Below are positions 3,995-64,000 of a DNA stretch of 64,000 nt, one piece after another. The stretch's first letter is position 1. Every line of letters starts with the position of its first letter. The notes under the pieces are model-generated. The model saw only the letters and a program-made list of their open reading frames with translations. It was not told the DNA's origin and searched no databases. Origin of the DNA: Escherichia phage EPFV3-03/2025; sequence record PV435126.1. One strand, 5' to 3'. The position numbers and the translations under genes are program-made.

Positions 3995-4029
3995 CATAGG
4001 GGGCTGTTTGCCCCCTTTCAGGAGAAAGA

Positions 4030-29946: not shown

Positions 29947-30426
29947 TCATGGCTCTTTCTCCGGTTCAGGATCTGGGTAATCTTCAATAATAAAGGGCCA
30001 TCCGTTACGCTTAGCGTCAGACTTATACTCAATTTCCTTCATTGCAAACTCTAACTGATTCTTGGCCGGAATGCAAGCTGGAGAATCATCAACCCAGATG
30101 TCTGGGTAGATATCAAACTGCGCCAGATAAGCGGCCTTCTGAACGCCTCCAGTATAAAACACTCCAACATCGAGCTCCTTGCGCCAGTATTCAATGTCCA
30201 CATTATCTTGAGTGATGAACCGAAAAGTCACAAGGTAGACTGTCCACCCTTCCTTCTTCAGGTCCTTAATCAAGCGGGAGAAGATGAAAGGGCTCGCATT
30301 AAACGTTCCATCAAAGTCAATGGCAATGATATGCGTGCCGTGGCGAGTCTCATATGGATTGCTCGTGGTAAGATTGCTGTAGTTAAAAGGCACTTCTTCC
30401 CCGCAGTAGCTGTAGTCCATATTCAC
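29947..30426 (-). CDS. HAD-superfamily phosphatase-like protein
   Basis: 159 aa; IIAIDFDGTF matches HAD motif I (DxDGT); WVDDSP resembles motif IV. Confidence 0.55.
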   Translation of the reverse strand: MNMDYSYCGEEVPFNYSNLTTSNPYETRHGTHIIAIDFDGTFNASPFIFSRLIKDLKKEGWTVYLVTFRFITQDNVDIEYWRKELDVGVFYTGGVQKAAYLAQFDIYPDIWVDDSPACIPAKNQLEFAMKEIEYKSDAKRNGWPFIIEDYPDPEPEKEP

Positions 30427-30698
30427 ACCTTCTCGTTGATAAATTTACGGGCGGTTTGGTGAGTTGTTTCCGCTGTCTTTAGAATAATATCGATCTTATT
30501 GTCAAGATCATTCATCTCAGCAGTTAATTCAGGGATCTCTCCAGCATGCATGGTGAAATCATACATAGACATGCCTATAATCTCATTGATGCGGCGGTTG
30601 CATTCTGCAGCACGCTGGTTCATTTTCCAAGCTAATACCAAAGCCTCCTGCGTGGCTTCTAGTGCAAAGTCTAATACATCTGCCTCTTCTTTCGTCAT
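30423..30698 (-). CDS. hypothetical protein
   Basis: 91-aa ORF, overlaps neighbour by 4 nt. Confidence 0.45.
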   Translation of the reverse strand: MTKEEADVLDFALEATQEALVLAWKMNQRAAECNRRINEIIGMSMYDFTMHAGEIPELTAEMNDLDNKIDIILKTAETTHQTARKFINEKV

Positions 30699-30753
30699 CT
30701 CAGTCTCTCCTGTTTATTGTTGATAGGTGTATGAATGCCTTATAACTAACTCT

Positions 30754-31320
30754 TTATTCAAATTGCAATAGCAAGTCCACCACCGCGCTAGGCCTGTCAA
30801 CAAACTCCCCAGGTCCGCATGCCCACAGAGGGTATCCGTCCACATACCTCCATATCCAACCTGAAGTGTGGAGCTCAAGAAGGGCAGTACCATCCTTACT
30901 GTTAACAACTCTTTCCCACAGTGTTGGGCAGCGAAGCTTTAGGATAGGATCCCCACCCTTATACCCGTCCATGTAGATACCCATTGCAAAGTTCAGCATC
31001 ATCTTTTTGTGCACTGACCTCTTACTGAGGGTGCTCATCACTTCCTCCTTGTGGATGTTTGTAAGCTTCTCCTTGGCTACCTGCAGATCGTTGCAGCCAT
31101 TGTTCAGAAGATCTTCCAGACACTTTACCCTAAGGTCGTGGATATCTTTGTCGTGCACCGTTGGTACAGGGTCGTAGCGATATAGCACTGTTGATACAAG
31201 GTTGCTAGGGTGTGGGTCTGACAGCAGTCCATAACCCCAATACTCTTCTGTATCTGAAAGGACAAGACACCCAATATCTCTGTCAAGCTTTCCTGTGTTG
31301 TAAGCCACATTGACCGCCAT
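30754..31320 (-). CDS. hypothetical protein
   Basis: 188-aa ORF. Confidence 0.5.
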   Translation of the reverse strand: MAVNVAYNTGKLDRDIGCLVLSDTEEYWGYGLLSDPHPSNLVSTVLYRYDPVPTVHDKDIHDLRVKCLEDLLNNGCNDLQVAKEKLTNIHKEEVMSTLSKRSVHKKMMLNFAMGIYMDGYKGGDPILKLRCPTLWERVVNSKDGTALLELHTSGWIWRYVDGYPLWACGPGEFVDRPSAVVDLLLQFE

Positions 31321-31322
31321 GA

Positions 31323-31568
31323 TTATAGCTCCACTAACAAAGTGCTTTCAAAATGCCTCTCATGCAGACCGCTATAAGGAACCACTTCCACAACACCGTC
31401 GCGGATATATGGAGTCATCATGGCAACATAATCACCGAATGGGTGGGCATTATCACTAACCACAACCACATGCTGCCCCTCCTTGGCAGAGTGCCAGATA
31501 GATCTGCATTTCATCATGTGTTCGAGAGCGCCAGGTAAAATCTTGTTACGTTCTTTACGGGTCTTCAT
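31323..31568 (-). CDS. hypothetical protein
   Basis: 81-aa ORF. Confidence 0.4.
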   Translation of the reverse strand: MKTRKERNKILPGALEHMMKCRSIWHSAKEGQHVVVVSDNAHPFGDYVAMMTPYIRDGVVEVVPYSGLHERHFESTLLVEL

Positions 31569-32014
31569 AACAGGTATAGCTCCTTATGAAAGTGGGCTTT
31601 CAATTTCTCACCGAGAAACTTCTTGATACCTTCCTCTAAGGTGTTTTCGATGTAGTCCAGCTTAACTGCTTCGATGGACATATCATAGATCGCCAGCTCT
31701 AAGCTGTCAAGTCCCATCATAGCATGAACCATAAGATTTTCATCTTCAGATACATTCAGGGGGCTTCCTATAACATCTGGAGGCAGAATAGTTTCCCAAT
31801 TATTCTGGGTGGTAGCTCCCCCGCCATCCACCTTACGTCGCAGCTCGAAGGTGTTCTTAGTGTAAAACACTTCATAAGAAACGATACGACTATCGCTCTC
31901 GTAATAAACGAAGTTAAGGTAGGAGCCGAGCCGTAGTCGGCAAACTTCTACCCCAAACCATTGTTTCTTATAAGAATTCAGGCTAATGCTGTCGCATTCA
32001 CGTTTGCTCAACAC
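31565..32014 (-). CDS. hypothetical protein
   Basis: 149-aa ORF. Confidence 0.5.
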   Translation of the reverse strand: MLSKRECDSISLNSYKKQWFGVEVCRLRLGSYLNFVYYESDSRIVSYEVFYTKNTFELRRKVDGGGATTQNNWETILPPDVIGSPLNVSEDENLMVHAMMGLDSLELAIYDMSIEAVKLDYIENTLEEGIKKFLGEKLKAHFHKELYLL

Positions 32015-32029
32015 GGCTCTCTCCTTTTG

Positions 32030-32263
32030 TTAATCTTCGTAAATCAGGATCTCTGCTTTAGGTTTTCGTGCTTTCAGGTCCAGCTCTATCCAGTGCACCA
32101 TAGCTGTTTCAAGAAAAACAGCCTGGATGCATCCGTCTTCAGCGTGTCCTACCAACATAACAAGATCTTCACCTTCGTCATCTTCATCACGAACATACAA
32201 AATCTCTCCGGACTCAAAGTCTTTTACAACCTGATTATTAGATAATTTACGAATTTTTGCCAT
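32030..32263 (-). CDS. hypothetical acidic protein
   Basis: 77-aa ORF. Confidence 0.45.
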   Translation of the reverse strand: MAKIRKLSNNQVVKDFESGEILYVRDEDDEGEDLVMLVGHAEDGCIQAVFLETAMVHWIELDLKARKPKAEILIYED

Positions 32264-32264
32264 A

Positions 32265-32528
32265 TCAGAAACCCTCTAAAAAGCTCTTGTAGAAAATAAT
32301 CTCAGTATCTACACCAGTCACGATCTTGTCGTTCCTGATTTCATCTGTAAGATAGGTGTCAAAACGCAGAACCTGTGTGGTGTTGTCACACATCCACTCG
32401 GCTGTGACCATGGCAAAAATCTTAGCATCTTCATTGTCCGGTGTGAATGTTACCACCTCACCGCATTTAAATTTTTCGATAGGCTGCGTGTTAGCTTTCG
32501 GTTCTGCAATGGTGATTTTTGTGGTCAT
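32265..32528 (-). CDS. hypothetical protein
   Basis: 87-aa ORF. Confidence 0.45.
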   Translation of the reverse strand: MTTKITIAEPKANTQPIEKFKCGEVVTFTPDNEDAKIFAMVTAEWMCDNTTQVLRFDTYLTDEIRNDKIVTGVDTEIIFYKSFLEGF

Positions 32529-32794
32529 TACTCTTCCTCCATAGTTTCACCAAATACTTCGATACGAGCGTCAAGCTCTGTTGCTTTCAGTTCTCCAACA
32601 AAATCTTTCAGTTCTTTCTCGTCAAGATCATATGCCCACACACAAGATGAGCATGCAGATTTCACGATCAGCAGTGTAGATACACGGCCTGACTCTGTAA
32701 TCATGCTCACAATGGTTCCTACAGGGAACGTGTTGATAGCTTTTTTAACTGGGCGTTCAGCTTTAATTACCACTTCTGTTGCCATAAATAACAT
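32528..32794 (-). CDS. hypothetical protein
   Basis: 88-aa ORF. Confidence 0.45.
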   Translation of the reverse strand: MLFMATEVVIKAERPVKKAINTFPVGTIVSMITESGRVSTLLIVKSACSSCVWAYDLDEKELKDFVGELKATELDARIEVFGETMEEE

Positions 32795-32800
32795 CCTCTC

Positions 32801-34282
32801 TTATTTGGCGTACTCGATTAATTCTACAGTTTTCCCAAAGCTTGGGATATAATTTTTATTATACCCTTCGGTGAGAACCCATAAAGTATCGTACTTTTTC
32901 CACTTGTTGTCAACAGCCTTTTGTTCAAAGTTATGCTCAAAGTATAGGTCGGTCAGGACGATGACATCTTTTGCATTTGGTATGTTAGCGTCCAGATACT
33001 CGAACACGCAAGCGGCTGTTGTTCCCCATGTTGAGTGGACCTCATAGTTGATCATCTCGTCGATGTTCCCCCGAGTGTATACTTTAACCTCTCCAACCTC
33101 GGTTGACCAGCAGAACATCGTAACCTTGAACTCTTTATACAGATTGCACAACCCAGTGATCTCATTGAACATTTTCTTTAAAGTTCTTTGAGAGATCGAT
33201 CCAGAAACGTCTAGAGCCACCACAATATCTATAGTGTTTTCCGGATTACGGCCCGGAACAACAACGTGCTGATTCTTGTTTATAGCCCCAACTTTTCGCA
33301 TTGTGCTGGTCAAAGACCCAGATCGGCGACCGGGTTTTCTGTAGGTTAGTTCAGCCTTTCGTTTAGACAGCATACGTTGCTTAATGATGTCTATATAATT
33401 GATTACAGGCTTACCTCTGTTCTTGACAAACTCACGCACAGCCTCAGGGCAACGACCTCCGGAAGCCTGCATTGCTGCTTCCAACATGTCACCAGAGTCC
33501 TGCATGGCTTGATCTTTATCAGATTGGCTGATCACTGGTTGTGGCTGATCATACCCCATCGCCTTTCCAAGATCATCACTAGTGCCACCGTTACCACTCA
33601 TGTGATCATCGGTTTGTCGTTTATCTCCTTGAGAGTTCTCGCCTTTACCGTTCTTACTTTTACCACTATTCTGATCTCTTTGCTTATCAAGAACCGCATA
33701 GACGTTCTCAGCAATCCATCCATGGAACCTCATGTCACAGTAGCAACTAGCTAAGAAGCCAAAAGGCTTACCTTTTACGAACTCAGTGCTTTTCCCCTTC
33801 GGGAAGAAAACACAAGGAGGCTTGCTAAAGTCAACCACAAGACCTGTGTTGATAACGTGATCACAAGCAATATTGAACAGTTCCGGCTCAAAGCTTTTAC
33901 CACGGACCAAATGATCACAGATAATATGCCCCACCTCATGTGACAGAAGAAAGGCCACCTCTTTCACAGATTTTGGGGAATAGAAAACCTCAGCCATCTC
34001 AAACTGCTTGTCAGTCAGAGATGCTTTAAGAATGGTTTTACGCTCATCTGCCAGCCCCATAATGAACTCAGGGCTGTAGTAGATGCGTTTATGGTCTGTT
34101 GCCATAGTGGAGCACCATGTGTGGTTTTCTACGAACTGCAACCCTGACAACAGTGTGCCATAAAACGGCAGCTTTTCAAGAAGATACATGCGTGCTGCCT
34201 GCAGCATTCGCAAGGCGTCATCTTTTTGTGCGGCAATGATTTCTGAACTTCTGCTATCCATTAAAACTCCAGAAGGGGCCAA
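32801..34282 (-). CDS. vWA-domain protein with N-terminal HExxH metallopeptidase-like motif
   Basis: 493 aa; HEVGHIICDH (HExxH) in the N-terminal half; C-terminal VVALDVSGSIS is a MIDAS-type DxSxS motif. True start is probably the internal Met (MDSRSS, near 34260) because the track N-terminus overlaps a hairpin. Confidence 0.65.
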   Translation of the reverse strand: MAPSGVLMDSRSSEIIAAQKDDALRMLQAARMYLLEKLPFYGTLLSGLQFVENHTWCSTMATDHKRIYYSPEFIMGLADERKTILKASLTDKQFEMAEVFYSPKSVKEVAFLLSHEVGHIICDHLVRGKSFEPELFNIACDHVINTGLVVDFSKPPCVFFPKGKSTEFVKGKPFGFLASCYCDMRFHGWIAENVYAVLDKQRDQNSGKSKNGKGENSQGDKRQTDDHMSGNGGTSDDLGKAMGYDQPQPVISQSDKDQAMQDSGDMLEAAMQASGGRCPEAVREFVKNRGKPVINYIDIIKQRMLSKRKAELTYRKPGRRSGSLTSTMRKVGAINKNQHVVVPGRNPENTIDIVVALDVSGSISQRTLKKMFNEITGLCNLYKEFKVTMFCWSTEVGEVKVYTRGNIDEMINYEVHSTWGTTAACVFEYLDANIPNAKDVIVLTDLYFEHNFEQKAVDNKWKKYDTLWVLTEGYNKNYIPSFGKTVELIEYAK

Positions 34283-34294
34283 TGGCCCCTGTCA

Positions 34295-35350
34295 TTATTT
34301 AACGTGCTTGAAAATACCAGCCAACTCGGTCATTGTCATGCGAGTGGTCTTCATAAGGTCTGTCATAGCCTTCTCCATGATTGGAGATACTACCATAAAG
34401 TTACCCTTGGTGAAACCTTTATTCCAGTCGGTCACTAATAGTGGTTTAAGTCCGGCCCCGAGACGCTCACCAGTCAAAGCACAACATTTTCGGATGTATG
34501 TGCTCTTAAATTGACTGAATGACAGATCAACTTTCATACCTGCATCGTAGAACGTCTGGCAATAGAAAGTGTAAGCTTTGGCAATCTCAACATCGTCAGG
34601 CAGTGCAGGAACCTCTTCTGTAAGCTCTTCTTCGACCCCTTTAGGCTCTTTTTCCTCTTCGTAAGTCTGTTGCATCATCTCTTCAATCTCCTCTGCTACA
34701 GGCTCGTTTACAATGTCAGAAATGTGCTTGTTTGCTCCACGATTAGCCATGAAGTTTTTAAAATCCTGCATTGGTGACATATCTTCCTCCCATTCTTCGT
34801 CAAAGAGTGCTAGTTTATCCTCTTCCGTTCCATATTGCAAGATGAAATCTTCAAAAGTGTAATCACCTTTCAATTTCTCCATACGCTCTTCGCTCAGGTG
34901 GAGCATCATCTGCTGGACAATTTTTCGATCAGTTTTGTCTTTAATCAAGACTGCGGTCTTTTTATCTACCAGGCAGTCCTTTAGAGAGTTGCATCTCAAT
35001 CCCACCACACAACAATTATCAACAGCATAAGGACCTTCATCATCTATCCGCTCTAGGGAGGGGTAGAAAGGATTTCCCAGTCCGTTTTCATCTGTGTGCA
35101 TGTCGAAAGGTATAAGGGTATAGTCGCACACCCCCTCTCCTAAAAGTTTTTTACCAAATAGGAGGTATTCTTCCCATGACAGGTTGAACTCTATATCTCG
35201 TTTCCGTGCATTATTTTGTTTGCGTCTGTATTTTTTGAGCAGGCGCTCTAACTCTTCTGGTGTATAATATTTTTCAAGATTCATGAGTTGTCTCTTGTGC
35301 TCTGTAGGTGAAGAAATCTTATCAAGTGCCTCAACAGATGTCAACCTCAA
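34295..35350 (-). CDS. hypothetical protein with HNH-like (His-Me finger) motif and acidic central region
   Basis: 351 aa; segment CDYT...SLERIDDEGPYAVDNCCVVGLRCNSLK resembles SLDRID-type HNH nucleases; a degenerate second copy (CALTGERL...KGFTKGNFMVV) near the C-terminus; Glu-rich middle. Confidence 0.45.
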   Translation of the reverse strand: MRLTSVEALDKISSPTEHKRQLMNLEKYYTPEELERLLKKYRRKQNNARKRDIEFNLSWEEYLLFGKKLLGEGVCDYTLIPFDMHTDENGLGNPFYPSLERIDDEGPYAVDNCCVVGLRCNSLKDCLVDKKTAVLIKDKTDRKIVQQMMLHLSEERMEKLKGDYTFEDFILQYGTEEDKLALFDEEWEEDMSPMQDFKNFMANRGANKHISDIVNEPVAEEIEEMMQQTYEEEKEPKGVEEELTEEVPALPDDVEIAKAYTFYCQTFYDAGMKVDLSFSQFKSTYIRKCCALTGERLGAGLKPLLVTDWNKGFTKGNFMVVSPIMEKAMTDLMKTTRMTMTELAGIFKHVK

Positions 35351-35357
35351 AAACGTG

Positions 35358-35386
35358 TTGACTTTACCCTAAATCCACGATATAGT
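35358..35386 (+). promoter_or_regulatory. sigma70-like promoter (TTGACT-17-TATAGT)
   Basis: In the 76-bp divergent intergenic region upstream of 35427. Confidence 0.5.
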
Positions 35387-35426
35387 TCACCCATTCGAAA
35401 GAAAACGAACACAGGAGTACTTAATC

Positions 35427-36326
35427 ATGGCAAATCTTAACAGCTTTAGCACTCGATGGAAACAAGATATCACAACCAATCTCTCTGCAGGCGATATCCT
35501 TTCTGCAATTTACGAGGCTTTGGATGATAAAGCTACTTCAAAATCGGTTTGTACCAACCCGTTAATTCCTATGGTAATGAAGGTGATTGAGCGTAGGTTG
35601 GTATCCGGATCTGATAAGTGGACATATCTGGATAATGGAGGCCACACTTACTCCAACGGCTATGTCGATATAAAAGTAGAATATGCGGTATCATATCGCC
35701 GGAGCGGCTCTGTAACTTTCAACTTCTCTGGTGGTTTCCGATCTCTGGCAACTTCACCTTTTGTTTCCTCAGAGGAGAAGTTTGAACTTCCGTTCCTTTG
35801 GATGATGGCTAACGCGACAGGCAAAACCCCTGTAAGCATTCGCGTAAAATACAACTACAACGGATCTAGTAAGATCTATGCTGAGAGTGTCTCAGCAAGT
35901 TTTTATTTTGTGATGGGGGATGGAATCCTCAAACATATAAAGATGTGCGATATGCATGATGTTATAAATGAAGTGACTGATAAGAATGTTCTGGTGAAGG
36001 ATCTCAACAATTTTTATACACCAGGGGACTATTACGTCAACCGTCCACTGTGCATCTTTAATGCTGCACACCCTTTAGGTGAGTATTTGATTGCCAATAG
36101 TGATATTGCCAATAACCGCTTCGAGGTAGCAAGAGTACAGAATGAGGTGTTGACATCTTGCAAGAGCGGTGATAAGTTTACCGAAGAAGAGATGGGTGTT
36201 TTAGAGATGATGGGATATAAGTGTAGCCTTTGGGTAGATGAGGTGTTTAATGACGGCATCTATGGACAGGATATTTACCCGTTAAAGAAGTATACTGATT
36301 CCAGTTTAATTTACGCGGGGATTTGA
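35427..36326 (+). CDS. hypothetical protein
   Basis: 299-aa ORF, first gene of the + strand early block. Confidence 0.55.
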   Translation: MANLNSFSTRWKQDITTNLSAGDILSAIYEALDDKATSKSVCTNPLIPMVMKVIERRLVSGSDKWTYLDNGGHTYSNGYVDIKVEYAVSYRRSGSVTFNFSGGFRSLATSPFVSSEEKFELPFLWMMANATGKTPVSIRVKYNYNGSSKIYAESVSASFYFVMGDGILKHIKMCDMHDVINEVTDKNVLVKDLNNFYTPGDYYVNRPLCIFNAAHPLGEYLIANSDIANNRFEVARVQNEVLTSCKSGDKFTEEEMGVLEMMGYKCSLWVDEVFNDGIYGQDIYPLKKYTDSSLIYAGI

Positions 36327-36601
36327 CTATGATGAAGGCATGTGGTAGTGTATACTATGTGGGTGAAAATGTTCAGGCAGACAGTGTGTGGAAATCCATT
36401 AAGTCCACCACCGATGATGCCTTCTTGAGCGGGTTATGTTTCCCCAATCCCGGAGACATTCTCCCTTACCCTGGGGATTTTGTTGTCAACAAGACGGACG
36501 GTTATACCGTGTGCCTGATGGTAGAAAAAATCTTTTTAGACACTAGACACAATCACCGTCTTGTGTTAAAATTTCAAGAATGTAAAATGACAGTTGCCTA
36601 A
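36323..36601 (+). CDS. hypothetical protein
   Basis: 92-aa ORF overlapping previous stop. Confidence 0.4.
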   Translation: MTMMKACGSVYYVGENVQADSVWKSIKSTTDDAFLSGLCFPNPGDILPYPGDFVVNKTDGYTVCLMVEKIFLDTRHNHRLVLKFQECKMTVA

Positions 36602-59817: not shown

Positions 59818-60009
59818 ATGGTAATTTTTAACCGGGATGGCATCATAGTTAGACAGCACCCCTTCCTTGAATACTATCAAATTGAGCAATGGTGCTACGG
59901 AGATTGCAGTCACTCCTATGGGCAAAGTTGGGGATATCGCACAGTTTTTGAATCAACAGACCTTGACAAAGTAAGACAGAAAGTTTTAGAACTTATTAAC
60001 AACAAGTGA
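59818..60009 (+). CDS. small hypothetical protein
   Basis: 63-aa ORF downstream of the consensus promoter. Confidence 0.45.
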   Translation: MVIFNRDGIIVRQHPFLEYYQIEQWCYGDCSHSYGQSWGYRTVFESTDLDKVRQKVLELINNK

Positions 60010-60019
60010 GTATCGTGCC

Positions 60020-60352
60020 ATGGTAACATTGGAAAGACGTAAAGCTATCGCCGCCACACTGGCAGACATCTTTTGGGATTGCAACTTAAAAGATACCCGA
60101 AATTGTGGCGCATCTGTAGATGTATTATTCCCACGGCCCACCATTGTTGCTATGGGAAACCTGTTAAACGTAGTGTACGGAGCATGGGACAAAGAAGGTG
60201 GATTCTATATCTGGCAACCTGACTACGGAGCCTGGAAAGAGGTAAGGGGTGCGGATGACTTTGGGCCTACAGTTGCTAAGATGGATGGCTGGGAAATTTA
60301 TGTTGGAAACGACATGAGGCTGAAAGGCGAGATTGTTTACTGGTTACCTTAA
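60020..60352 (+). CDS. hypothetical protein
   Basis: 110-aa ORF. Confidence 0.45.
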   Translation: MVTLERRKAIAATLADIFWDCNLKDTRNCGASVDVLFPRPTIVAMGNLLNVVYGAWDKEGGFYIWQPDYGAWKEVRGADDFGPTVAKMDGWEIYVGNDMRLKGEIVYWLP

Positions 60353-60372
60353 GAAAGTGCAGGAGATAAAGT

Positions 60373-60618
60373 ATGAACAAAGGGTGGACATTTGTAGACG
60401 GCGTTAAAAACATGCCTCTAGGAAAGTATATCGTAGCCATGACTGATGAGGATGGCAATGTAGATTTCGGAGCTTGCGAGGTTGTTCTTGCAGGGTCTGG
60501 TAACTATGTGGACAAAACTGGGATAATTAACGGTCAGTTCTACTTTGATCACAACCCTGTTGTAGCGTATATGGCTATGCCAGAGTTCAAGTTCCCAAAG
60601 GGGGGTGCCGATGTTTAA
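60373..60618 (+). CDS. small hypothetical protein
   Basis: 81 aa; RBS AGGAGA. Confidence 0.45.
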   Translation: MNKGWTFVDGVKNMPLGKYIVAMTDEDGNVDFGACEVVLAGSGNYVDKTGIINGQFYFDHNPVVAYMAMPEFKFPKGGADV

Positions 60619-60805
60619 GCTTAAATCTGCATGGAACATTGCTGTAGGTGATGAGATCCGCATTCCAGGTGGTAAAACTATTATGAAAATATCTCGTATC
60701 GAGTACGAAGGTGACCGTGTATTCCACATCTTTGCAGAAGATGGTCGAGAAATTTATATACAGGCAGGCTCACACATCTATATTCGTAAATGGGATGACA
60801 AATGA
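60605..60805 (+). CDS. small hypothetical protein
   Basis: 66-aa ORF overlapping neighbours at both ends. Confidence 0.4.
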   Translation: MPMFKLKSAWNIAVGDEIRIPGGKTIMKISRIEYEGDRVFHIFAEDGREIYIQAGSHIYIRKWDDK

Positions 60806-61131
60806 CAGAGATCATCATTTCAACTGCAGGATATGTATTCCTGACAATCATTGCGCTGATCATCTTGGTGGTGGTGTATGGATTTGTTATCCTGCCTATT
60901 CTTGAGACATTTAGTTTGTGTCGGTGTTGGAGAAAGGCTTACGGACCACAGCCGTGGAGAGACTGGCCCCACCTGTTACGCATAGCGTTCTCTTATGCCT
61001 ATGATCACTCCAGTAGTGCATGCATAACCGGGTATCACGCCCACAACTGGAACTGGGAAGGGCTGGGGAGATGGAGTGTTATAAAAACTATACCTCTACG
61101 CATGTACAAGCCTAAAAACAAAGATAGTTGA
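60802..61131 (+). CDS. membrane protein
   Basis: 109 aa; strongly hydrophobic N-terminal segment IISTAGYVFLTIIALIILVVVYGFVILPIL. Confidence 0.45.
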   Translation: MTEIIISTAGYVFLTIIALIILVVVYGFVILPILETFSLCRCWRKAYGPQPWRDWPHLLRIAFSYAYDHSSSACITGYHAHNWNWEGLGRWSVIKTIPLRMYKPKNKDS

Positions 61132-61444
61132 TACTTGAAAATCCCTGGCACATCAAGTATAAGGGGGATTTCTAAAATGGATTTCCTCCTTTTGATATTT
61201 TACCTAGCCGGATATTTTAAAATTCCTAGAAAATCAGAAAATGGATCGAAAACTAAAATGGATTTTTTCAAGACAGGCACGATAAGCTGCGCTGCTCATT
61301 CTATCATTCGCACCGTACTCCAAATCACCGTTCCAGATTTTCCGCACACACTCTCGCCCTTCTACCAGAACTTTCCCAACTTACCTTCGGCCTTTTATGA
61401 CAATAAGTTAATTATTATCAGTAAGTTTTGATACATCTCTCTCA

Positions 61445-61625
61445 GTACTCGATCTGTTTTTCATTTCAAAGATTGGATTTTCTGAAAAATTTTCTCGATA
61501 AATTTTTCGGTACTCGATCTGTTTTTCGTTTTCTGAATCAGATTTTCTGGAAATCGTTCCGGCGCTCGACCTGAAATTTTTGGGGACGAAATCGATTTTT
61601 CGTTTTCAGAAACGGATTTTTAAAA
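61445..61625. repeat. three imperfect direct repeats (~55-65 bp; GTACTCGATCTGTTTTTC... / GATTTTCTGRAAA)
   Basis: Two near-identical copies of GTACTCGATCTGTTTTTC and a third degenerate copy, each with GATTTTCTG-like submotif; non-coding. Confidence 0.6.
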
Positions 61626-61737
61626 TTTCTATATGGGAATATTTTAGGAGGTATTATTTTATATAGAATTGTCACGGTAGGTAATTAGCATGCTAACTAA
61701 ATTTATGAAATGCGAAAAGTTCTCATTTAGAATTTTG

Positions 61738-62060
61738 AATGATAATCATTCTCGTTTGCAGAATAACGGGCACCCCCGGTGATTGTCTCCCGGCCCCTAC
61801 TGCCCCGGCTTGTTATTATAGTATCACACAGGACAAAGAAAGCAAGAAGTTTTTGCATAAATTTTTAGACGATAATGATAATCGTTCTCATTTCATGCAG
61901 CGCCCATCCCCGGTGGTTGTCTCCCCCGTCACCGGTGCCTGCCGTCCTTTCGATATGTATATTGTGCCACCTGGCGGGGCCGCTGTCAACACTTTTCAAA
62001 AAAAAAAATTCTAACCTGATGCGCTAACCGCTGCAACCTGGCGGGGCCAGCCTGGTGGGC
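61738..62060. repeat. GC-rich direct repeats in AT-rich context (GATAAT...CCCCGGTG.TTGTCTCCC twice; CCTGGCGGGGCC twice)
   Basis: Two copies of a ~60-nt unit and two copies of CCTGGCGGGGCC; contains an 11-nt A-run near 61995; overlapped by an improbable track ORF. Confidence 0.5.
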
Positions 62061-62102
62061 CTACGCTATAGGATAGGCAACAATTGAAGAGGAGGTACAA
62101 AA

Positions 62103-62279
62103 ATGAAAGGTAATAGGATCCCCCTGGAAAATGTAGCTATTAATAACGCTGAGGCTATCGCCCTGGTTGAAAAGGCTATGGCGGGAGCGTTGGAACATAA
62201 AGAAGAGTACGAAAAAATGATGGTCAACCTAGCAGGGGCGGCGGCTGGAGAATTCTACCCAAAAAATAATTTTAACTAG
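62103..62279 (+). CDS. small hypothetical protein (58 aa)
   Basis: Not in the track (under 60 aa); ATG after GAAGAGGAGG RBS; MKGNRIPLENVAINNAEAIALVEKAMAGALEHKEEYEKMMVNLAGAAAGEFYPKNNFN. Confidence 0.4.
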   Translation: MKGNRIPLENVAINNAEAIALVEKAMAGALEHKEEYEKMMVNLAGAAAGEFYPKNNFN

Positions 62280-62282
62280 TGG

Positions 62283-62311
62283 TTGACAGCTCGGACAGTT
62301 TTTGTTATTCT
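62283..62311 (+). promoter_or_regulatory. sigma70-like promoter (TTGACA-17-TATTCT)
   Basis: Upstream of 62365. Confidence 0.45.
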
Positions 62312-62364
62312 TATCCTCGCAAGGTGAACAACACCACACTAATCAACAGAGAGGATAAAAAATC

Positions 62365-62562
62365 ATGAACGCCTACGGAATTAAAGTACGTCGCAGCACT
62401 CGCCAGGTGGTCACCGATCAAATGATTTGCCAGGTGGATGTGACCATCAACAACGGGCAAGGCCTTTATAAATTCCGTCGCGGTCAGAGCTATACCCGGC
62501 AACAGCTTAATCGTTGCGCCCTGACAAAAGGCCAGATCAACCACTGGTTTAATAAAAAATAA
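62365..62562 (+). CDS. small basic protein
   Basis: 65 aa; RBS AGAGAGGA. Confidence 0.45.
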   Translation: MNAYGIKVRRSTRQVVTDQMICQVDVTINNGQGLYKFRRGQSYTRQQLNRCALTKGQINHWFNKK

Positions 62563-62565
62563 GTA

Positions 62566-62594
62566 TTGACATATAGGCCGACACCAAATACACT
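62566..62594 (+). promoter_or_regulatory. sigma70-like promoter (TTGACA-17-TACACT)
   Basis: Upstream of 62627. Confidence 0.45.
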
Positions 62595-62626
62595 AAAAGC
62601 ACAAAAGACACTGAGAGGATAAAATC

Positions 62627-63025
62627 ATGAAAACCACCACCTTTAATTTTGATAATGCGGACTTTTCTTTTTCTGATGTCAATAACTGCCGCCGTGATCG
62701 TGGATTTTACAAGGCCTATAATCTGGTGGGCCTGGATGATGACAATAATTTGCACGAAGTAGCTGAGATCCGGTATTATGCCGCCGCCAGCGGGAACACT
62801 CATTACTGCGTTTTTTGGATACACGACAACAAGAACAATAAGTACGGCTATACTGGCGGCAAGGCGAGCGGACACGGTTATGATAAAGCCAACGCAGCAC
62901 TTGAGAGCGCATTAAATGCTATGGGGATCACTGCCGACGGCTGGATCTACGAAGAAGAGTTTTTGTCGGCACTTGCTGACCGCCTGGGCTATAAAAAGCA
63001 CATTGTGACATGTGCCCACGAATAA
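62627..63025 (+). CDS. hypothetical protein
   Basis: 132 aa; RBS GAGAGGA. Confidence 0.5.
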   Translation: MKTTTFNFDNADFSFSDVNNCRRDRGFYKAYNLVGLDDDNNLHEVAEIRYYAAASGNTHYCVFWIHDNKNNKYGYTGGKASGHGYDKANAALESALNAMGITADGWIYEEEFLSALADRLGYKKHIVTCAHE

Positions 63026-63031
63026 AAATCA

Positions 63032-63060
63032 TTGACACGCTGCAAAATTCAAGTAAACTA
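63032..63060 (+). promoter_or_regulatory. sigma70-like promoter (TTGACA + TAAACT-like -10)
   Basis: Upstream of 63108. Confidence 0.4.
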
Positions 63061-63107
63061 GGCACAAAAGGCGGGAATGTCTCCCGCCAACATAAAGGAA
63101 AAAGATC

Positions 63108-63512
63108 ATGAATAAGAACGTACGCCGCATCATGAACGAGCTGGCAAACGATGAAAAAATTATTGACATGCATTTGATCAACATTTGCCGCCGTTGTGTA
63201 ACATACAACAACCGCGCCGCAAAAGCGCGTGAGATGAACGCAAAAGGCACCTTAAAGCCATTTCAGGTGGTGGTAAAGGCCATTAAAGATGTAACTAATA
63301 CGGCAAACCAGGCACAGGAGAACACCAACGAGAGTACCAATATTGATCCGGCTTACATCATGAAACGGATCCGGATCTGTAAGAATAAAGAGCAGATATA
63401 TAACGTCATAGATTGGTTGGATTCTATGGGCGACGTGGTGTACAACAGGTTTTCTGCAGCTATTGAGATCCAGCTTGACAGGTTGGACGGGAAAGTACTG
63501 AAAACTTATTAA
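63108..63512 (+). CDS. hypothetical protein
   Basis: 134 aa; RBS AAGGAAAAAG. Confidence 0.5.
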   Translation: MNKNVRRIMNELANDEKIIDMHLINICRRCVTYNNRAAKAREMNAKGTLKPFQVVVKAIKDVTNTANQAQENTNESTNIDPAYIMKRIRICKNKEQIYNVIDWLDSMGDVVYNRFSAAIEIQLDRLDGKVLKTY

Positions 63513-63530
63513 GTTTATTTTTAGATGGCC

Positions 63531-63560
63531 TTGACTCCAGGGCCATCAATAAAGTAAACT
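63531..63560 (+). promoter_or_regulatory. sigma70-like promoter (TTGACT-18-TAAACT)
   Basis: Upstream of the 39-codon ORF at 63593. Confidence 0.4.
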
Positions 63561-63592
63561 AGTCTCAACTAAGCGAAAAAGGGGGCTTTAAG

Positions 63593-63712
63593 ATGAGCAC
63601 TACACGCCCATACACAAAGGTAACTATTATCGTTTGCGTTGTCGGTTACATCCTGGCGCAAATGTTAATGAGTAGCGCCAACAGTTTTGCAAAATTTTTC
63701 TTAAATTTTTAA
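63593..63712 (+). CDS. very small hydrophobic peptide (39 aa)
   Basis: ATG after AAAGGGGG; MSTTRPYTKVTIIVCVVGYILAQMLMSSANSFAKFFLNF; one predicted TM segment. Confidence 0.3.
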   Translation: MSTTRPYTKVTIIVCVVGYILAQMLMSSANSFAKFFLNF

Positions 63713-63740
63713 TTGACAAGCTAACCCAAATCAGTATACT
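63713..63740 (+). promoter_or_regulatory. sigma70-like promoter (TTGACA-16-TATACT)
   Basis: Near-consensus; upstream of 63796. Confidence 0.5.
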
Positions 63741-63795
63741 TAAACACGTAAACGGGAAAACTTCCCAAAACACAAAAAAAAAAGGAGAAAACACC

Positions 63796-64000
63796 ATGAC
63801 TACTATGACCGCCGCAGAAAAAGCTATGCAGATCGCCGCGCTGAAAAAACAGATCGCAGACCTTGAGAACAAGATCGATAACTTTGAAATCGACGAGGAC
63901 AAGTACGACGAAAACTATGATGACTGGTTAGACGAGATCTACGGCGAAATTATGATCGGTAACATTTCTTTTCTTCCGTCGCGTATCCTCAAGGAGTTAG
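63796..64000 (+). CDS. hypothetical protein (3' truncated by window end)
   Basis: ATG after AAAGGAGAAAA; coiled-coil-like MTTMTAAEKAMQIAALKKQIADLENKI...; runs off the window. Confidence 0.45.
   Translation, partial: MTTMTAAEKAMQIAALKKQIADLENKIDNFEIDEDKYDENYDDWLDEIYGEIMIGNISFLPSRILKEL

What the first reader, a model, noticed from the sequence alone, without database searches (positions are those of the whole stretch)
61135..62100. Repeat-dense non-coding island: candidate origin, packaging site or structured RNA
About 1 kb with little convincing coding capacity; the two track ORFs here translate repeats. It contains three copies of CTAAAATGGAT-like motifs (61170-61265), an inverted repeat ACTTGA...TCAAGT near 61140, three ~60-bp direct repeats with GTACTCGATCTGTTTTTC cores (61445-61625), two ~60-nt GC-rich repeats (GATAAT...CCCCGGTG.TTGTCTCCC) and duplicated CCTGGCGGGGCC in otherwise AT-rich DNA, plus an A11 tract. 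Iteron-like arrays next to AT-rich DNA are typical of replication origins; the GC-rich units could instead encode a structured RNA.
Basis: seen in the sequence. Interest (0 to 1): 0.55.

Follow-up and report, generated by a model that had tools for sequence, protein, structure and literature searches.

The report
Phage non-coding island with Fur boxes
This roughly 1-kb gene-free stretch of an rV5-like E. coli phage is a conserved control region whose "GC-rich repeats" each follow a near-perfect binding site for the host iron sensor Fur, so a strictly lytic phage may read the iron status of the cell it infects.

Summary
The window is an rV5-like Vequintavirus. Region 61132-62102 is non-coding. 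ORF 61135-61431 is broken in 9 of 11 relatives. ORF 61739-62014 starts inside a repeat, has no ribosome-binding site and is absent in other genera.

Three of five segments are at least as conserved as the flanking genes (0.93-0.96 identity). An internal spacer has drifted to 0.75.

The new result concerns the two "GC-rich repeats". Each starts with a near-consensus Fur box. Box 1 shares 16 nt with the E. coli fhuA Fur site and 26 of 28 nt with the mntH Fur site. About 50 bp further on, each has a sigma-70-type promoter on the opposite strand, pointing back across the box toward the iterons.

The Fur-box module recurs in at least five Vequintavirinae genera, in Phapecoctavirus and in a jumbo-phage contig. 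No Rfam match, folding signal or covariation supports a structured RNA.

Best reading is an origin-like or early control region gated by host Fur. Fur binding, transcription and origin function were not tested. I found no published description.

The parts
61132..61159 (.). Inverted repeat TACTTGA / TCAAGTA (14-nt loop) directly after the stop codon (61129-61131) of the upstream gene. It may be a weak two-way transcription stop at the left edge of the island.
   Evidence: Sequence. Lies in conserved segment A. It does not meet the terminator-scan criteria.
61165..61270 (+). A-tract block. It holds AAAATGGAT repeats (61172, 61236, 61253) and GATATTTTA repeats (61194-61202, 61211-61219).
   Evidence: Mean pairwise identity is 0.959 among 9 Vequintavirus genomes, higher than the flanking genes. 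TGATATTT-type repeats also lie at the left of the islands of phiTE, L008, L016 and L018.
61271..61440 (.). Unconstrained spacer. It serves as the neutral baseline for the island.
   Evidence: Identity 0.751, only 41% invariant columns, and frame-shifting indels. It makes up the bulk of the spurious ORF 61135-61431.
61435..61620 (+). Three direct repeat units of 65-74 nt. Iteron cores are GTACTCGATCTG (61445-61456, 61510-61521), degenerate GCGCTCGACCTG (61562-61573) and GGACGAAATCGATT (61583-61596). Each is followed by T5 tracts and GATTTTC.
   Evidence: (family D1). Nearly invariant in Vequintavirus. Two to four same-orientation CTCGA(T/C)C cores, mostly 65-78 nt apart, lie upstream of the Fur module in Mydovirus, Certrevirus, Seunavirus and three IMG/VR contigs. 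The Hena1-like phage has homologous 69-76-nt units with a different core, GGGGACTTGAGAGG.
61709..61728 (.). Fur-like box 0 (AATGCGAAAAGTTCTCATTT). This is a degenerate copy.
   Evidence: Repeat families D6 and I2. It corresponds to the upstream box GAATGAGAAGCATTCTTATTT of Mydovirus and Seunavirus.
61735..61759 (.). Fur box 1. Two overlapping 19-mers lie 6 bp apart (61735 with 4 mismatches, 61741 with 5), centred on C61746.
   Evidence: It shares 16 consecutive nt (ATAATCATTCTCGTTT) with the E. coli fhuA Fur site (gel-shifted in PMC2189734). It matches 26 of 28 nt of the mntH promoter Fur site. It is the most widely conserved piece of the island across genera.
61735..61764 (+). Candidate rightward promoter P1, TTGAAT-N18-CAGAAT, overlapping Fur box 1. 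The predicted start is near A61772.
   Evidence: My reading of the sequence, plus (score 7.5). It is weak. The hexamer ..GAAT is conserved, but the critical A at -11 is not (CTGAAT, CGGAAT, TGGAAT in other lineages).
61769..61791 (.). GC-rich core of unit 1, GGCACCCCCGGTGATTGTCTCCC. The cross-genus consensus is GGCA-SS-YYC-GGTG-WTTGTCTC.
   Evidence: It is absent from bacterial genomes beyond chance: 9 hits in unrelated taxa in 596 Gb, and about 9 are expected by my own arithmetic.
61815..61845 (-). Leftward promoter of unit 1. The -35 is TTGCTT (61845-61840) and the -10 is TATAAT (61820-61815) with a 19-nt spacer. The predicted start is near 61808, reading into the GC-rich core and Fur boxes 1 and 0.
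   Evidence: A minus-strand promoter-like site falls at the same relative position (+73 to +83) in 10 of 16 modules from different genera, while the spacer sequences differ.
61871..61895 (.). Fur box 2, GATAATGATAATCGTTCTC (2 mismatches to the consensus). It is the best match in the 64-kb window and has a 6-bp-shifted partner at 61877.
   Evidence: (0.00 matches expected by chance).
61905..61925 (.). GC-rich core of unit 2, CATCCCCGGTGGTTGTCTCCC.
   Evidence: family D4, 90% identical to unit 1. Nearly invariant in 11 Vequintavirus genomes.
61961..61989 (-). Leftward promoter of unit 2, TTGACA-N17-CACAAT with an upstream TG. The predicted start is near 61954. The first CCTGGCGGGGCC copy forms its GC-rich spacer.
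   Evidence: Promoter scan, 10 of 12 matches plus TG. Also. The hexamers are invariant and the spacer nearly so in 11 Vequintavirus genomes.
61996..62102 (+). Variable right edge. It holds the A11 tract (61998-62008, length-polymorphic), the second CCTGGCGGGGCC copy (62037-62048), a site where relatives carry 48 extra nt (after 62059), and the ribosome-binding site GAGGAGG (62089-62095) of gene 62103-62279.
   Evidence: Identity 0.889 with 30% gapped positions.

Best explanation
The island is a conserved non-coding control region shared by rV5-like phages (Vequintavirinae), Phapecoctavirus and at least one jumbo-phage contig.

Its left and middle parts hold phased A/T tracts and three 65-74-bp units with a phage-specific iteron. 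These look like the assembly site of a phage DNA-binding protein, most plausibly a replication origin.

Its right part holds two tandem modules of about 135 bp. Each module has three pieces. The first is a near-consensus operator for the host iron repressor Fur. The second is a phage-specific GC-rich core. The third, about 50 bp from the box, is a sigma-70 promoter on the strand opposite to all neighbouring genes.

The proposed mechanism is as follows. Host RNA polymerase starts at these leftward promoters and transcribes across the Fur boxes into the iteron region, as activating or priming transcription does at other phage origins. Fur-Fe2+ bound to the boxes blocks or modulates that transcription. 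It may also repress a weaker rightward promoter that overlaps box 1. Activity of the region would then depend on the iron status of the infected cell.

Shown here:
- the region is non-coding;
- parts of it are under purifying selection;
- the boxes are near-identical to real Fur operators;
- the opposite-strand promoter-like site is positionally conserved;
- the architecture recurs across genera.

Inferred, not shown:
- Fur binding;
- use of the promoters;
- the direction of regulation;
- origin function.
For: 1. Non-coding and constrained. ORF1 is broken in 9 of 11 relatives. Segments A, C and D have identity 0.959, 0.927 and 0.960. The internal spacer has 0.751 and the neighbouring genes 0.907-0.953.

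2. Fur boxes.
- The only two strong consensus matches in 64 kb lie here (2 and 4 mismatches).
- Each has a partner shifted by exactly 6 bp. This spacing is the hallmark of Fur site clusters (PMC2189734).
- Box 1 shares 16 nt, and the whole right half-site, with the gel-shifted fhuA site. It matches 26 of 28 nt of the mntH site.
- No Vequintavirinae record encodes a Fur homologue, so the cognate protein would be the host's.
- All named hosts among the blastn hits are Enterobacterales, apart from records labelled Campylobacter or Acinetobacter.

3. The boxes are the most widely conserved part.
- Blastn from this window reaches other genera only through 61706-61793.
- Arrays of 1-6 boxes occur in Mydovirus, Certrevirus, Seunavirus, a Hena1-like phage, Phapecoctavirus and a 347-kb contig.

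4. Leftward promoter.
- TTGACA-17-CACAAT with an upstream TG scores as well as the early-gene promoters next door.
- A minus-strand -35/-10 pair sits at the same offset in 10 of 16 modules, although the spacers have diverged.

5. Iterons. Cores lie in the same orientation, mostly 65-78 nt apart. The core differs between genera, as expected if it co-evolves with a phage protein.
Against: - There are no expression, binding or replication data. Every functional step is inferred.
- The Fur boxes lie about +50 to +100 downstream of the predicted leftward starts. They do not overlap that promoter, which is not the usual geometry of Fur repression.
- The rightward promoter that does overlap box 1 lacks a conserved -11 A in several genera.
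- Many phage boxes carry the symmetric variant TGAGAAT-N-ATTCTCA rather than TGATAAT-N-ATTATCA. This could mean a different, phage-encoded dimer is the real ligand.
- There are no DnaA boxes, no IHF consensus and no GATC enrichment.
- There is no GC-skew inflection at this site. The rV5 authors also found none that was independent of transcription direction.
- No initiator gene was identified next to the island.
- Phapecoctavirus, the Hena1-like phage, L018 and the jumbo contig keep the Fur module but lack CTCGATC iterons. The two parts may therefore be functionally separable.
Confidence: 0.45

Rival explanations
1. The boxes bind a phage-encoded dimeric protein, such as an early repressor or an origin-binding protein, rather than host Fur. 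Their resemblance to Fur operators would be convergent or vestigial.
For: - Phapecoctavirus has six separate, well-spaced boxes (24-58 nt apart). Their consensus AAATGAGAATNATTCTCAT differs from the Fur consensus symmetrically in both half-sites.
- In that genus the boxes take the place of the CTCGATC iterons.
- Arrays this large are unusual for a simple repressed promoter.
Against: - The ATTCTC half-site also occurs in the fhuA and mntH Fur sites of E. coli.
- The Vequintavirus left half-sites are canonical (TGATAAT).
- Box 2 has only 2 mismatches to the full 19-mer.
- The 6-bp-shifted overlap typical of Fur is present.
- The box sequence stays nearly constant across genera, whereas the true iterons diverge. 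This fits a conserved host ligand better than a co-evolving phage protein.
Confidence: 0.2
2. The box array acts as a Fur decoy. As the genome replicates to hundreds of copies, the boxes titrate Fur. This derepresses the host iron and manganese regulon, which would include uptake systems, RyhB and the Mn-dependent ribonucleotide reductase. This reading is compatible with the best explanation.
For: - There are two to six near-consensus boxes per genome, and several do not overlap any promoter.
- Multicopy Fur boxes are known to derepress the regulon; this is the principle of the Fur titration assay (PMC2189734).
- My own estimate is that 200 genomes, each with 3-6 boxes binding 4 monomers, amount to 2,400-4,800 monomers. 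From memory, a cell holds several thousand Fur monomers.
Against: - A decoy would not need the conserved spacing to a promoter or the GC-rich core.
- The time available in a lytic cycle may be too short for new uptake systems to matter.
- No measurement exists.
Confidence: 0.15
3. The island is the packaging initiation (pac) site of this headful, circularly permuted phage. The iterons would bind the small terminase subunit.
For: - rV5 is reported as circularly permuted (PMC3606486), so a pac-type signal may exist.
- From my own knowledge, repeated motifs flanked by bent DNA are typical of the SPP1 and P1 pac sites.
- The iteron motif is essentially unique to this locus in the window.
Against: - From the gene order described for rV5, the late and morphogenesis block lies tens of kb away. 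This was not checked with tools here.
- The island sits inside the early-gene region.
- Promoters and host-repressor sites are not expected parts of a pac site.
Confidence: 0.12
4. The two modules are genes for short antisense-oriented RNAs. These would be transcribed leftward from 61954 and 61808, and their G-rich 5' parts (GAGACAAWCACCGG) would act on a target RNA or protein.
For: - The leftward promoters are conserved.
- The distance from the promoter to the Fur box is about 50 nt in most lineages.
- A long-range pairing AUAGCGGG / CCCGCUAU is 93% paired across 12 lineages. It uses G-U pairs that would be A-C mismatches on the other strand.
- The sequence GAGACAA falls in a predicted hairpin loop in both units.
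Against: - No Rfam family matches.
- Folding is no better than shuffles.
- Covariation is not above control.
- No intrinsic terminator follows either unit.
- In Vequintavirus unit 1, the 5' arm of the long-range pairing overlaps the -10 element, so it would not be transcribed.
Confidence: 0.12
5. ORF 61739-62014 (91 aa, rV5 gp193, phrog_14993) is a real small protein, and its coding constraint explains the conservation of the right half.
For: - The frame is open in 10 of 11 Vequintavirus genomes.
- Variable columns show a mild excess at the third codon position (11/8/19).
- A PHROG family exists for it.
Against: - The codon-position bias is not significant (my chi-square gives p about 0.08).
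- The start codon lies inside the Fur box and has no ribosome-binding site.
- The C-terminus changes frame with the polymorphic A-run.
- One relative has an internal stop.
- The ORF does not exist in other genera, although the underlying DNA elements do.
- There is no Pfam match.
- The PHROG family is built from the same near-invariant DNA.
Confidence: 0.04

Closest known systems
Fur operators of the E. coli fhuA and mntH promoters (Fur regulon)
   Same: - Same sequence class. The right half-site ATTCTCGTT of box 1 is identical in all three.
- 16 consecutive nt are shared with fhuA, and 26 of 28 nt with mntH, including the GAATAAC that follows the mntH box.
- The overlapping sites are shifted by 6 bp, as in the Fur clusters described in PMC2189734.
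   Different: - These boxes lie in the genome of a strictly lytic phage, in a gene-free island, not in front of an iron or manganese gene.
- They occur as arrays of 2-6 boxes.
- They are followed by a phage-specific GC-rich core in place of the MntR operator.
- The best-conserved promoter nearby points at the box from downstream rather than overlapping it.
Fur-regulated cargo of temperate phages (the sitABCD operon on lambdoid coliphages; the stx1 promoter)
   Same: A phage genome carries a host Fur box, which ties a phage-borne function to the host Fur regulon (PMC6969025; stx1 from my own knowledge).
   Different: Those boxes control accessory cargo genes of prophages. Here the boxes sit in a conserved core non-coding region of virulent phages, with no iron-related gene nearby.
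Iteron-type and transcription-activated phage origins (lambda ori, P1 oriR, T4 oriE with iterons; T7 primary origin and T4 oriF/oriG with a promoter next to an unwinding element). Cited from my own knowledge.
   Same: Same-orientation repeats with A/T tracts lie in a gene-free stretch. Promoters are aimed into the repeat region.
   Different: - There is no sequence similarity to these origins.
- No adjacent initiator gene was identified.
- There are no DnaA or IHF sites.
- There is no evidence of replication initiation.
- No known phage origin uses Fur.
The repeat-rich untranslated region in the left terminal repeat of phage T5 (injection stop signal)
   Same: A large gene-free region of a virulent coliphage that acts in cis (bioRxiv 10.1101/866236, abstract seen).
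   Different: T5 has fixed ends and injects its DNA in two steps. rV5-like genomes are circularly permuted, so an injection stop signal at a fixed distance from an end is not applicable.

Membership tests
Fur box (operator of the enterobacterial ferric uptake regulator) | Match to the 19-bp consensus GATAATGATAATCATTATC (the 7-1-7 inverted repeat) | tested here: met
   Position 61871 has 2 mismatches and 61735 has 4. These are the two best matches in 64 kb, with 0.00 expected at up to 3 mismatches. The core is identical to the fhuA and mntH sites.
Fur box (operator of the enterobacterial ferric uptake regulator) | Overlapping sites shifted by 3 or 6 bp (site clusters, PMC2189734) | tested here: met
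   The pairs 61735/61741 and 61871/61877 show this. The same 6-bp pairs occur in L007, L008, L018 and L030.
Fur box (operator of the enterobacterial ferric uptake regulator) | Overlap with the -35/-10 elements of the repressed promoter | tested here: inconclusive
   TTGAAT-18-CAGAAT overlaps box 1 in Vequintavirus, but the A at -11 is not conserved in other genera. The conserved promoter is on the other strand, about 50 bp away.
Fur box (operator of the enterobacterial ferric uptake regulator) | Binding of Fur with its metal cofactor in vitro or in vivo, and iron-dependent expression | not testable with these tools
   This needs gel shift or footprinting, a Fur titration assay, and RNA mapping with and without iron in wild-type and fur-deletion hosts.
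Iteron-type replication origin | Three or more direct repeats in the same orientation, conserved in relatives | tested here: met
   Three units are present in the window. Two to four same-orientation cores occur in seven other lineages.
Iteron-type replication origin | Adjacent A+T-rich unwinding region | tested here: inconclusive
   The iteron segment has GC 0.33 and contains six T5 tracts. Other genera have a conserved GAAAAAATTTTTT element. No unwinding calculation was done.
Iteron-type replication origin | Host factor sites (DnaA boxes, IHF), as in lambda, P1 and plasmid origins | tested here: not met
   No DnaA-box or IHF consensus occurs on either strand of 61100-62110. GATC is not enriched. 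This feature does not define all phage origins.
Iteron-type replication origin | Initiation of replication at the site (marker-frequency peak, autonomous replication) and a cognate initiator protein | not testable with these tools
   No coverage or replication data are available. No initiator was identified. The neighbouring genes have no known function.
pac site of headful-packaging phages | Location in or next to the small terminase gene | not tested
   The terminase gene was not located with tools. The only indication is the published rV5 gene order, from which the late-gene block appears to be distant.
pac site of headful-packaging phages | Preferred DNA ends at the site in virion DNA | not testable with these tools
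   This needs read-termini analysis.
Structured non-coding RNA or small RNA gene | Match to a described RNA family | tested here: not met
   Rfam 15 gives only chance-level hits (E of 3 or more) in 60000-64000. It gives none at E up to 0.1 in five related loci. No tRNA or tmRNA was found.
Structured non-coding RNA or small RNA gene | Folding more stable than shuffles, and base pairs supported by compensatory changes | tested here: not met
   z-scores range from -1.43 to +1.50. The one conserved long-range pairing has covariation equal to the shuffled control.
Structured non-coding RNA or small RNA gene | Own promoter and intrinsic terminator delimiting a short transcript | tested here: inconclusive
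   Promoter-like sites are present. No intrinsic terminator follows either unit.
Protein-coding gene | Reading frame preserved in relatives with codon-position bias | tested here: not met
   ORF 61135-61431 is broken in 9 of 11 relatives and shows a flat 53/49/55 pattern. ORF 61739-62014 is open in most, but its bias is not significant, it has no ribosome-binding site, and it is absent in other genera.

The most novel reading that the evidence does not exclude
Host Fur-Fe2+ is a built-in component of the replication or early-transcription control region of a whole group of virulent enterobacterial phages (Vequintavirinae, Phapecoctavirus and others). Under this reading Fur either gates primer or activating transcription into an iteron origin, which would make phage DNA replication conditional on iron, or it is titrated by the amplified box arrays, which would reprogram the host iron and manganese regulon. 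Either way it would be the first host metal sensor known to be wired into the core lytic programme of a phage.
Probability: 0.25. Interest if true: 0.8.

Novelty: new variant of a known kind. Interest (0 to 1): 0.6.

Why it matters
rV5-like phages are among the broadest-host-range coliphages. They are common in the infant gut (PMC6969025) and are used in phage-therapy cocktails against E. coli O157.

Iron is scarce in the gut and in infected tissue. If Fur controls the early programme or the replication of these phages, their performance there could differ from that in iron-rich laboratory broth, where Fur is active.

The finding also turns an unannotated "non-coding box" into a set of defined, mutable elements. 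It suggests where to look for the unknown origin of this phage group. It gives simple tests with an existing protein (Fur) and existing assays.

More generally, it would add a metal-sensing host repressor to the short list of host regulators that lytic phages exploit in cis.

Tried and rejected
- **tRNA or tmRNA.** None was found in the window or in relatives. The tRNA-Met, tRNA-Ile and tRNA-Lys features of Klebsiella phage record OY978796 that overlap the homologous region are not recovered by ARAGORN and are probably mis-placed coordinates.
- **Known RNA family.** No match.
- **pseudo-ToxI of phiTE.** The homologous phiTE island is at 38.9-39.8 kb. The anti-ToxIN locus is at 106.7 kb, so the two are unrelated.
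- **Sigma-54 promoter in GGCAC-N-GGTG.** By eye, the spacing fits GG-N10, but the -12 GC is replaced by GA or GT in all lineages. Rejected.
- **DnaA boxes, IHF sites, GATC clustering.** Absent or not enriched, although the iteron core contains GATC.
- **Host origin of the GC-rich core.** Only chance-level hits appear in 185,579 bacterial genomes.
- **A second copy of the GGTGATTGTCTC core at 36546.** This is a chance hit with no module around it.
- **Phage-encoded Fur.** None in Vequintavirinae.
- **Compensatory base changes in the module.** None were contiguous.
- **Literature.** Searches for Fur boxes, origin, transcriptome or pac site in rV5-like phages found nothing relevant. The mntH promoter paper (PMC99535) is not held, so the mapped mntH start site could not be compared.
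Full report
**What the window is.** Megablast of 60800-62400 finds 121 phage records. Of these, 111 cover at least 80% of the query, at 80-99% identity. Nearly all are rV5-like coliphages of the genus Vequintavirus. The best hits are VB-EcoM-WM at 98.8% and FV3 at 97.3%. The finding lies between the last gene of one run of small plus-strand genes (60802-61131) and the first gene of another (62103-62279). In the second run each gene has its own sigma-70-type promoter.

**The observation.**
- The iteron core GTACTCGATCTG occurs exactly only at 61445 and 61510 in 64 kb.
- The region has no tRNA and no Rfam match.
- ORF 61135-61431 is not a gene. In a MAFFT alignment of 11 Vequintavirus genomes it is interrupted in 9, and its variable columns are equally frequent at the three codon positions (53/49/55).
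- ORF 61739-62014 stays open in most genomes. However, its ATG lies inside a repeat and it has no ribosome-binding site. Its end shifts frame with the polymorphic A-run. Its codon bias is weak (11/8/19). It has no counterpart in other genera that keep the same DNA elements.
- Annotators of related genomes disagree on what to call here.

**Selection.** I split the island into five segments and compared nine Vequintavirus genomes.

| Segment | Coordinates | Mean pairwise identity |
|---|---|---|
| A, A-tract repeats | 61132-61270 | 0.959 |
| B, spacer | 61271-61440 | 0.751 |
| C, iterons | 61441-61700 | 0.927 |
| D, the two "GC-rich" units | 61701-61995 | 0.960 |
| E, right edge | 61996-62102 | 0.889, with 30% gapped positions |

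The neighbouring genes score 0.907-0.953. Segment B shows what unconstrained DNA looks like in this group. Segments A, C and D are held at least as tightly as coding sequence.

**The new element: Fur boxes.** The start of each GC-rich unit matches the binding site of the enterobacterial iron repressor Fur.
- With up to 3 mismatches, the 19-mer consensus GATAATGATAATCATTATC matches only at 61871 (2 mismatches), against 0.00 expected.
- With a looser cut-off, the next best site in the window is 61735 (4 mismatches). Each of the two has a partner shifted by exactly 6 bp (61741, 61877).
- Overlapping sites 6 bases apart are the signature of Fur site clusters in E. coli (PMC2189734).
- The only E. 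coli hit of 61700-61800 across 5,426 complete genomes is the mntH promoter. The phage reads TGATAATCATTCTCGTTTGCAGAATAAC and mntH reads TGATAATCATTCTCGTTTG--GAATAAC. It is centred on the position where PMC2189734 places a 19.9-bit Fur site at -56 of mntH.
- The fhuA promoter site, which the same paper confirmed by gel shift (19.5 bits, -45), reads TATAATAAT-C-ATTCTCGTT. The window reads AATGATAAT-C-ATTCTCGTT. The right half-sites are identical and 16 consecutive nt are shared.
- A tblastn search with E. coli Fur finds no homologue in any Vequintavirinae record. If a Fur-type protein binds here, it is the host's.

**Conservation beyond the genus.** A sensitive blastn search of the island against 50,697 phage records reaches other genera only through 61706-61793, which is the Fur boxes and the first GC-rich core. 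Two pattern scans of IMG/VR and eight further fetched records gave 15 distinct lineages:
- Vequintavirus;
- Mydovirus;
- Certrevirus (phiTE, F1M1E);
- Seunavirus (4MG, LNA4, GE_vB_MG);
- a Hena1-like Erwinia phage;
- Phapecoctavirus of the separate subfamily Stephanstirmvirinae (phiWec179, phiWec190);
- four unclassified contigs of 116-149 kb;
- one 347-kb jumbo-phage contig.

The common layout, read in window orientation, is:
1. TGATATTT-type repeats and A-tracts.
2. A variable spacer.
3. Two to four repeat units of 65-78 nt with a genus-specific core. The core is GTACTCGATCTG in Vequintavirus, GG(G/T)TCTCGATCG in Certre-, Mydo- and Seunavirus, and GGGGACTTGAGAGG in the Hena1-like phage.
4. 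In other genera, an A/T element (GAAAAAATTTTTT).
5. One to six Fur-like boxes.
6. The motif GCAGAAT-RAC-GGCA-SS-YYC-GGTG-WTTGTCTC.
7. After a conserved distance of about 50 nt, an A/T hexamer that reads as a -10 element on the minus strand, with a TTGxxx -35 element 16-19 nt from it.

phiWec190 has six boxes in 200 nt and no CTCGATC iterons. The GC-rich core is phage-specific. A degenerate 21-mer finds only 9 hits in unrelated bacteria in 596 Gb. By my own arithmetic this is the number expected by chance.

**Promoters.**
- The consensus scan finds TTGACA-17-CACAAT with an upstream TG on the minus strand at 61989-61961. It scores 10 of 12, as good as the early-gene promoters to its right.
- My own scan of 16 modules puts a top-two minus-strand promoter candidate (the top one in nine) at +73 to +83 from the Fur-box anchor in 10 of them. 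The intervening spacers are not alignable.
- Conserved hexamers with free spacers is the pattern expected of a real promoter.
- The two Vequintavirus copies would start near 61954 and 61808 and transcribe leftward. This is against the direction of every neighbouring gene. The transcripts would cross the GC-rich core (which is G-rich in the RNA) and the Fur boxes, heading toward the iterons.
- A rightward promoter TTGAAT-18-CAGAAT overlaps box 1. This is the classical Fur geometry. However, its -11 A is replaced in Mydovirus, phiTE and the jumbo contig, so I rate it uncertain.

**Is it a structured RNA?** The evidence does not support this.
- Single-sequence folds of both strands of both units are no more stable than shuffles (z between -1.43 and +1.50).
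- RNAalifold on 12 lineages finds nothing on the plus strand apart from the Fur-box palindrome and a four-pair stem with no compensatory changes.
- On the minus strand it finds a long-range pairing, AUAGCGGG with CCCGCUAU, that is 93% paired. It uses G-U pairs that would be mismatches on the other strand.
- Its covariation equals the shuffled control. An exhaustive column-pair search finds no contiguous compensatory helix.
- No intrinsic terminator follows either unit.
- A short leftward RNA is therefore possible but unsupported.

**Origin, pac site or something else?**
- The left and middle parts have the look of a protein-assembly site. They have same-orientation repeats with regular spacing and phased T-tracts (six T5 runs in 160 nt). 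Their core changes between genera while the frame of the unit stays.
- Together with promoters aimed into the repeats, this resembles iteron-type and transcription-activated phage origins. That comparison rests on my own knowledge of lambda, P1, T4 and T7.
- Against this, there are no DnaA or IHF sites and no GATC enrichment. There is no skew signal (rV5 paper), no identified initiator, and no homology to plasmid origins.
- rV5 is reported as circularly permuted, so a pac site is a legitimate rival.
- The rV5 paper marks a "non-coding" box without interpretation.
- Full-text searches found no description of Fur boxes, an origin, a pac site or a transcript map for this phage group.

**Verdict.**
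An origin-like cis-element is plausible. A structured RNA is not supported.
- The main result is new. A conserved array of near-consensus host Fur operators, paired with opposite-strand promoters, sits in a core non-coding region of virulent enterobacterial phages.
- I estimate about 0.7 that Fur binds these sites in vitro, about 0.6 that the leftward promoters are used, and about 0.35 that the island is the origin. The combined mechanism gets 0.45.
- A phage-encoded ligand for the boxes (0.2) and a Fur-decoy role (0.15, not exclusive of the best explanation) are the most serious alternatives.

Noticed in passing
window 62280-63760: Each small early gene to the right of the island has its own near-consensus sigma-70 promoter: TTGACA-16/17-TATTCT, TACACT, TAAACT and TATACT at 62283, 62566, 63032 and 63713. 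This is a tandem array of single-gene early units of unknown function (PHROGs 21957, 7119, 7028, 13245).
   Followed up: partly
window 63070-63088: A GC-rich hairpin GGCGGGAATGTCTCCCGCC lies between the promoter at 63032 and the start codon at 63108. The scan flags it as a minus-strand terminator, but on the plus strand it is a stem-loop in the 5' leader of gene 63108-63512.
   Followed up: no
window 62103-62279 and the aligned positions in L005, L037, L038: The first gene after the island is unstable among relatives. ECP26 has ATA in place of ATG. LL12 lacks the 5' part of the gene. rV5 has an early stop (annotated as the shorter gp192). The gene appears to be dispensable or decaying.
   Followed up: partly
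window 62059/62060, versus L001, L005 and L015: Several relatives carry an extra 48 nt (GGACCTAACTGACCAGGTAGGAGAGAATGAAGGCTT...) that this window lacks. Others have partial versions. This is a hotspot of insertion and deletion next to the second CCTGGCGGGGCC copy.
   Followed up: no
L003 2504-3199 (Klebsiella phage vB_Kpn_K45PH128C2, OY978796.1): Three tRNA features (Met, Ile, Lys) are annotated over the homologous non-coding island. ARAGORN finds no tRNA there, and the sequence is the Fur-box module. The record's tRNA coordinates look misplaced.
   Followed up: yes
one search hit list (MG0656xx 'Campylobacter phage' records): Sixteen records named Campylobacter phage, with host given as C. 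jejuni, are about 91% identical to this E. coli rV5-like sequence over the whole query. They are probably coliphage contaminants or mislabelled.
   Followed up: no
CP057073.1 17008-17997 (PLSDB 'plasmid', 137,565 bp): A complete rV5-like genome is filed as a non-mobilizable plasmid of an E. coli isolate from cattle faeces. This could be a carrier state or co-assembled phage DNA.
   Followed up: no
L003 2819-3004, L043 1819-2010, L046 1781-2047 (minus strand): In Mydovirus, Seunavirus and Phapecoctavirus, a small minus-strand gene lies just right of the Fur module and points toward it. It is DUF7170 in L003. phiTE has an unrelated 93-aa protein with no Pfam match at this position. Vequintavirus has no such gene and instead has a second copy of the module.
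   Followed up: partly
L003 2660-2745, L004 2650-2735, and also L016, L018, L043, L044: A well conserved non-coding element (CCGGCGATCCACCTTCC...TTAGCCCCGCCTTTTCGCCGTGGGGTGGCG) lies right of the module in the other genera. It is preceded by a doubled CTTTACAA motif. It is absent from the window and has no Rfam match.
   Followed up: partly
L011 1470-1670 and L030 6230-6300 (IMG/VR contigs unrelated to rV5): Other viral contigs also carry arrays of near-consensus Fur boxes. L011 is GC-rich and has about seven boxes in 200 nt. L030 has tandem 44-nt repeats that each contain a box. Fur-box arrays may therefore be more widespread in phages.
   Followed up: no
L002 2809-3006 (PQ014731.1): The homologue of the 66-aa ORF 60605-60805 is annotated as '30S ribosomal protein S2'. 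This is implausible for a protein of that size. It matches only a PHROG of unknown function.
   Followed up: partly
window 30000-36000: This is the only stretch of the window with negative GC skew, meaning a block of minus-strand genes. From the published rV5 map, it should correspond to rV5 genes 11-26.
   Followed up: no
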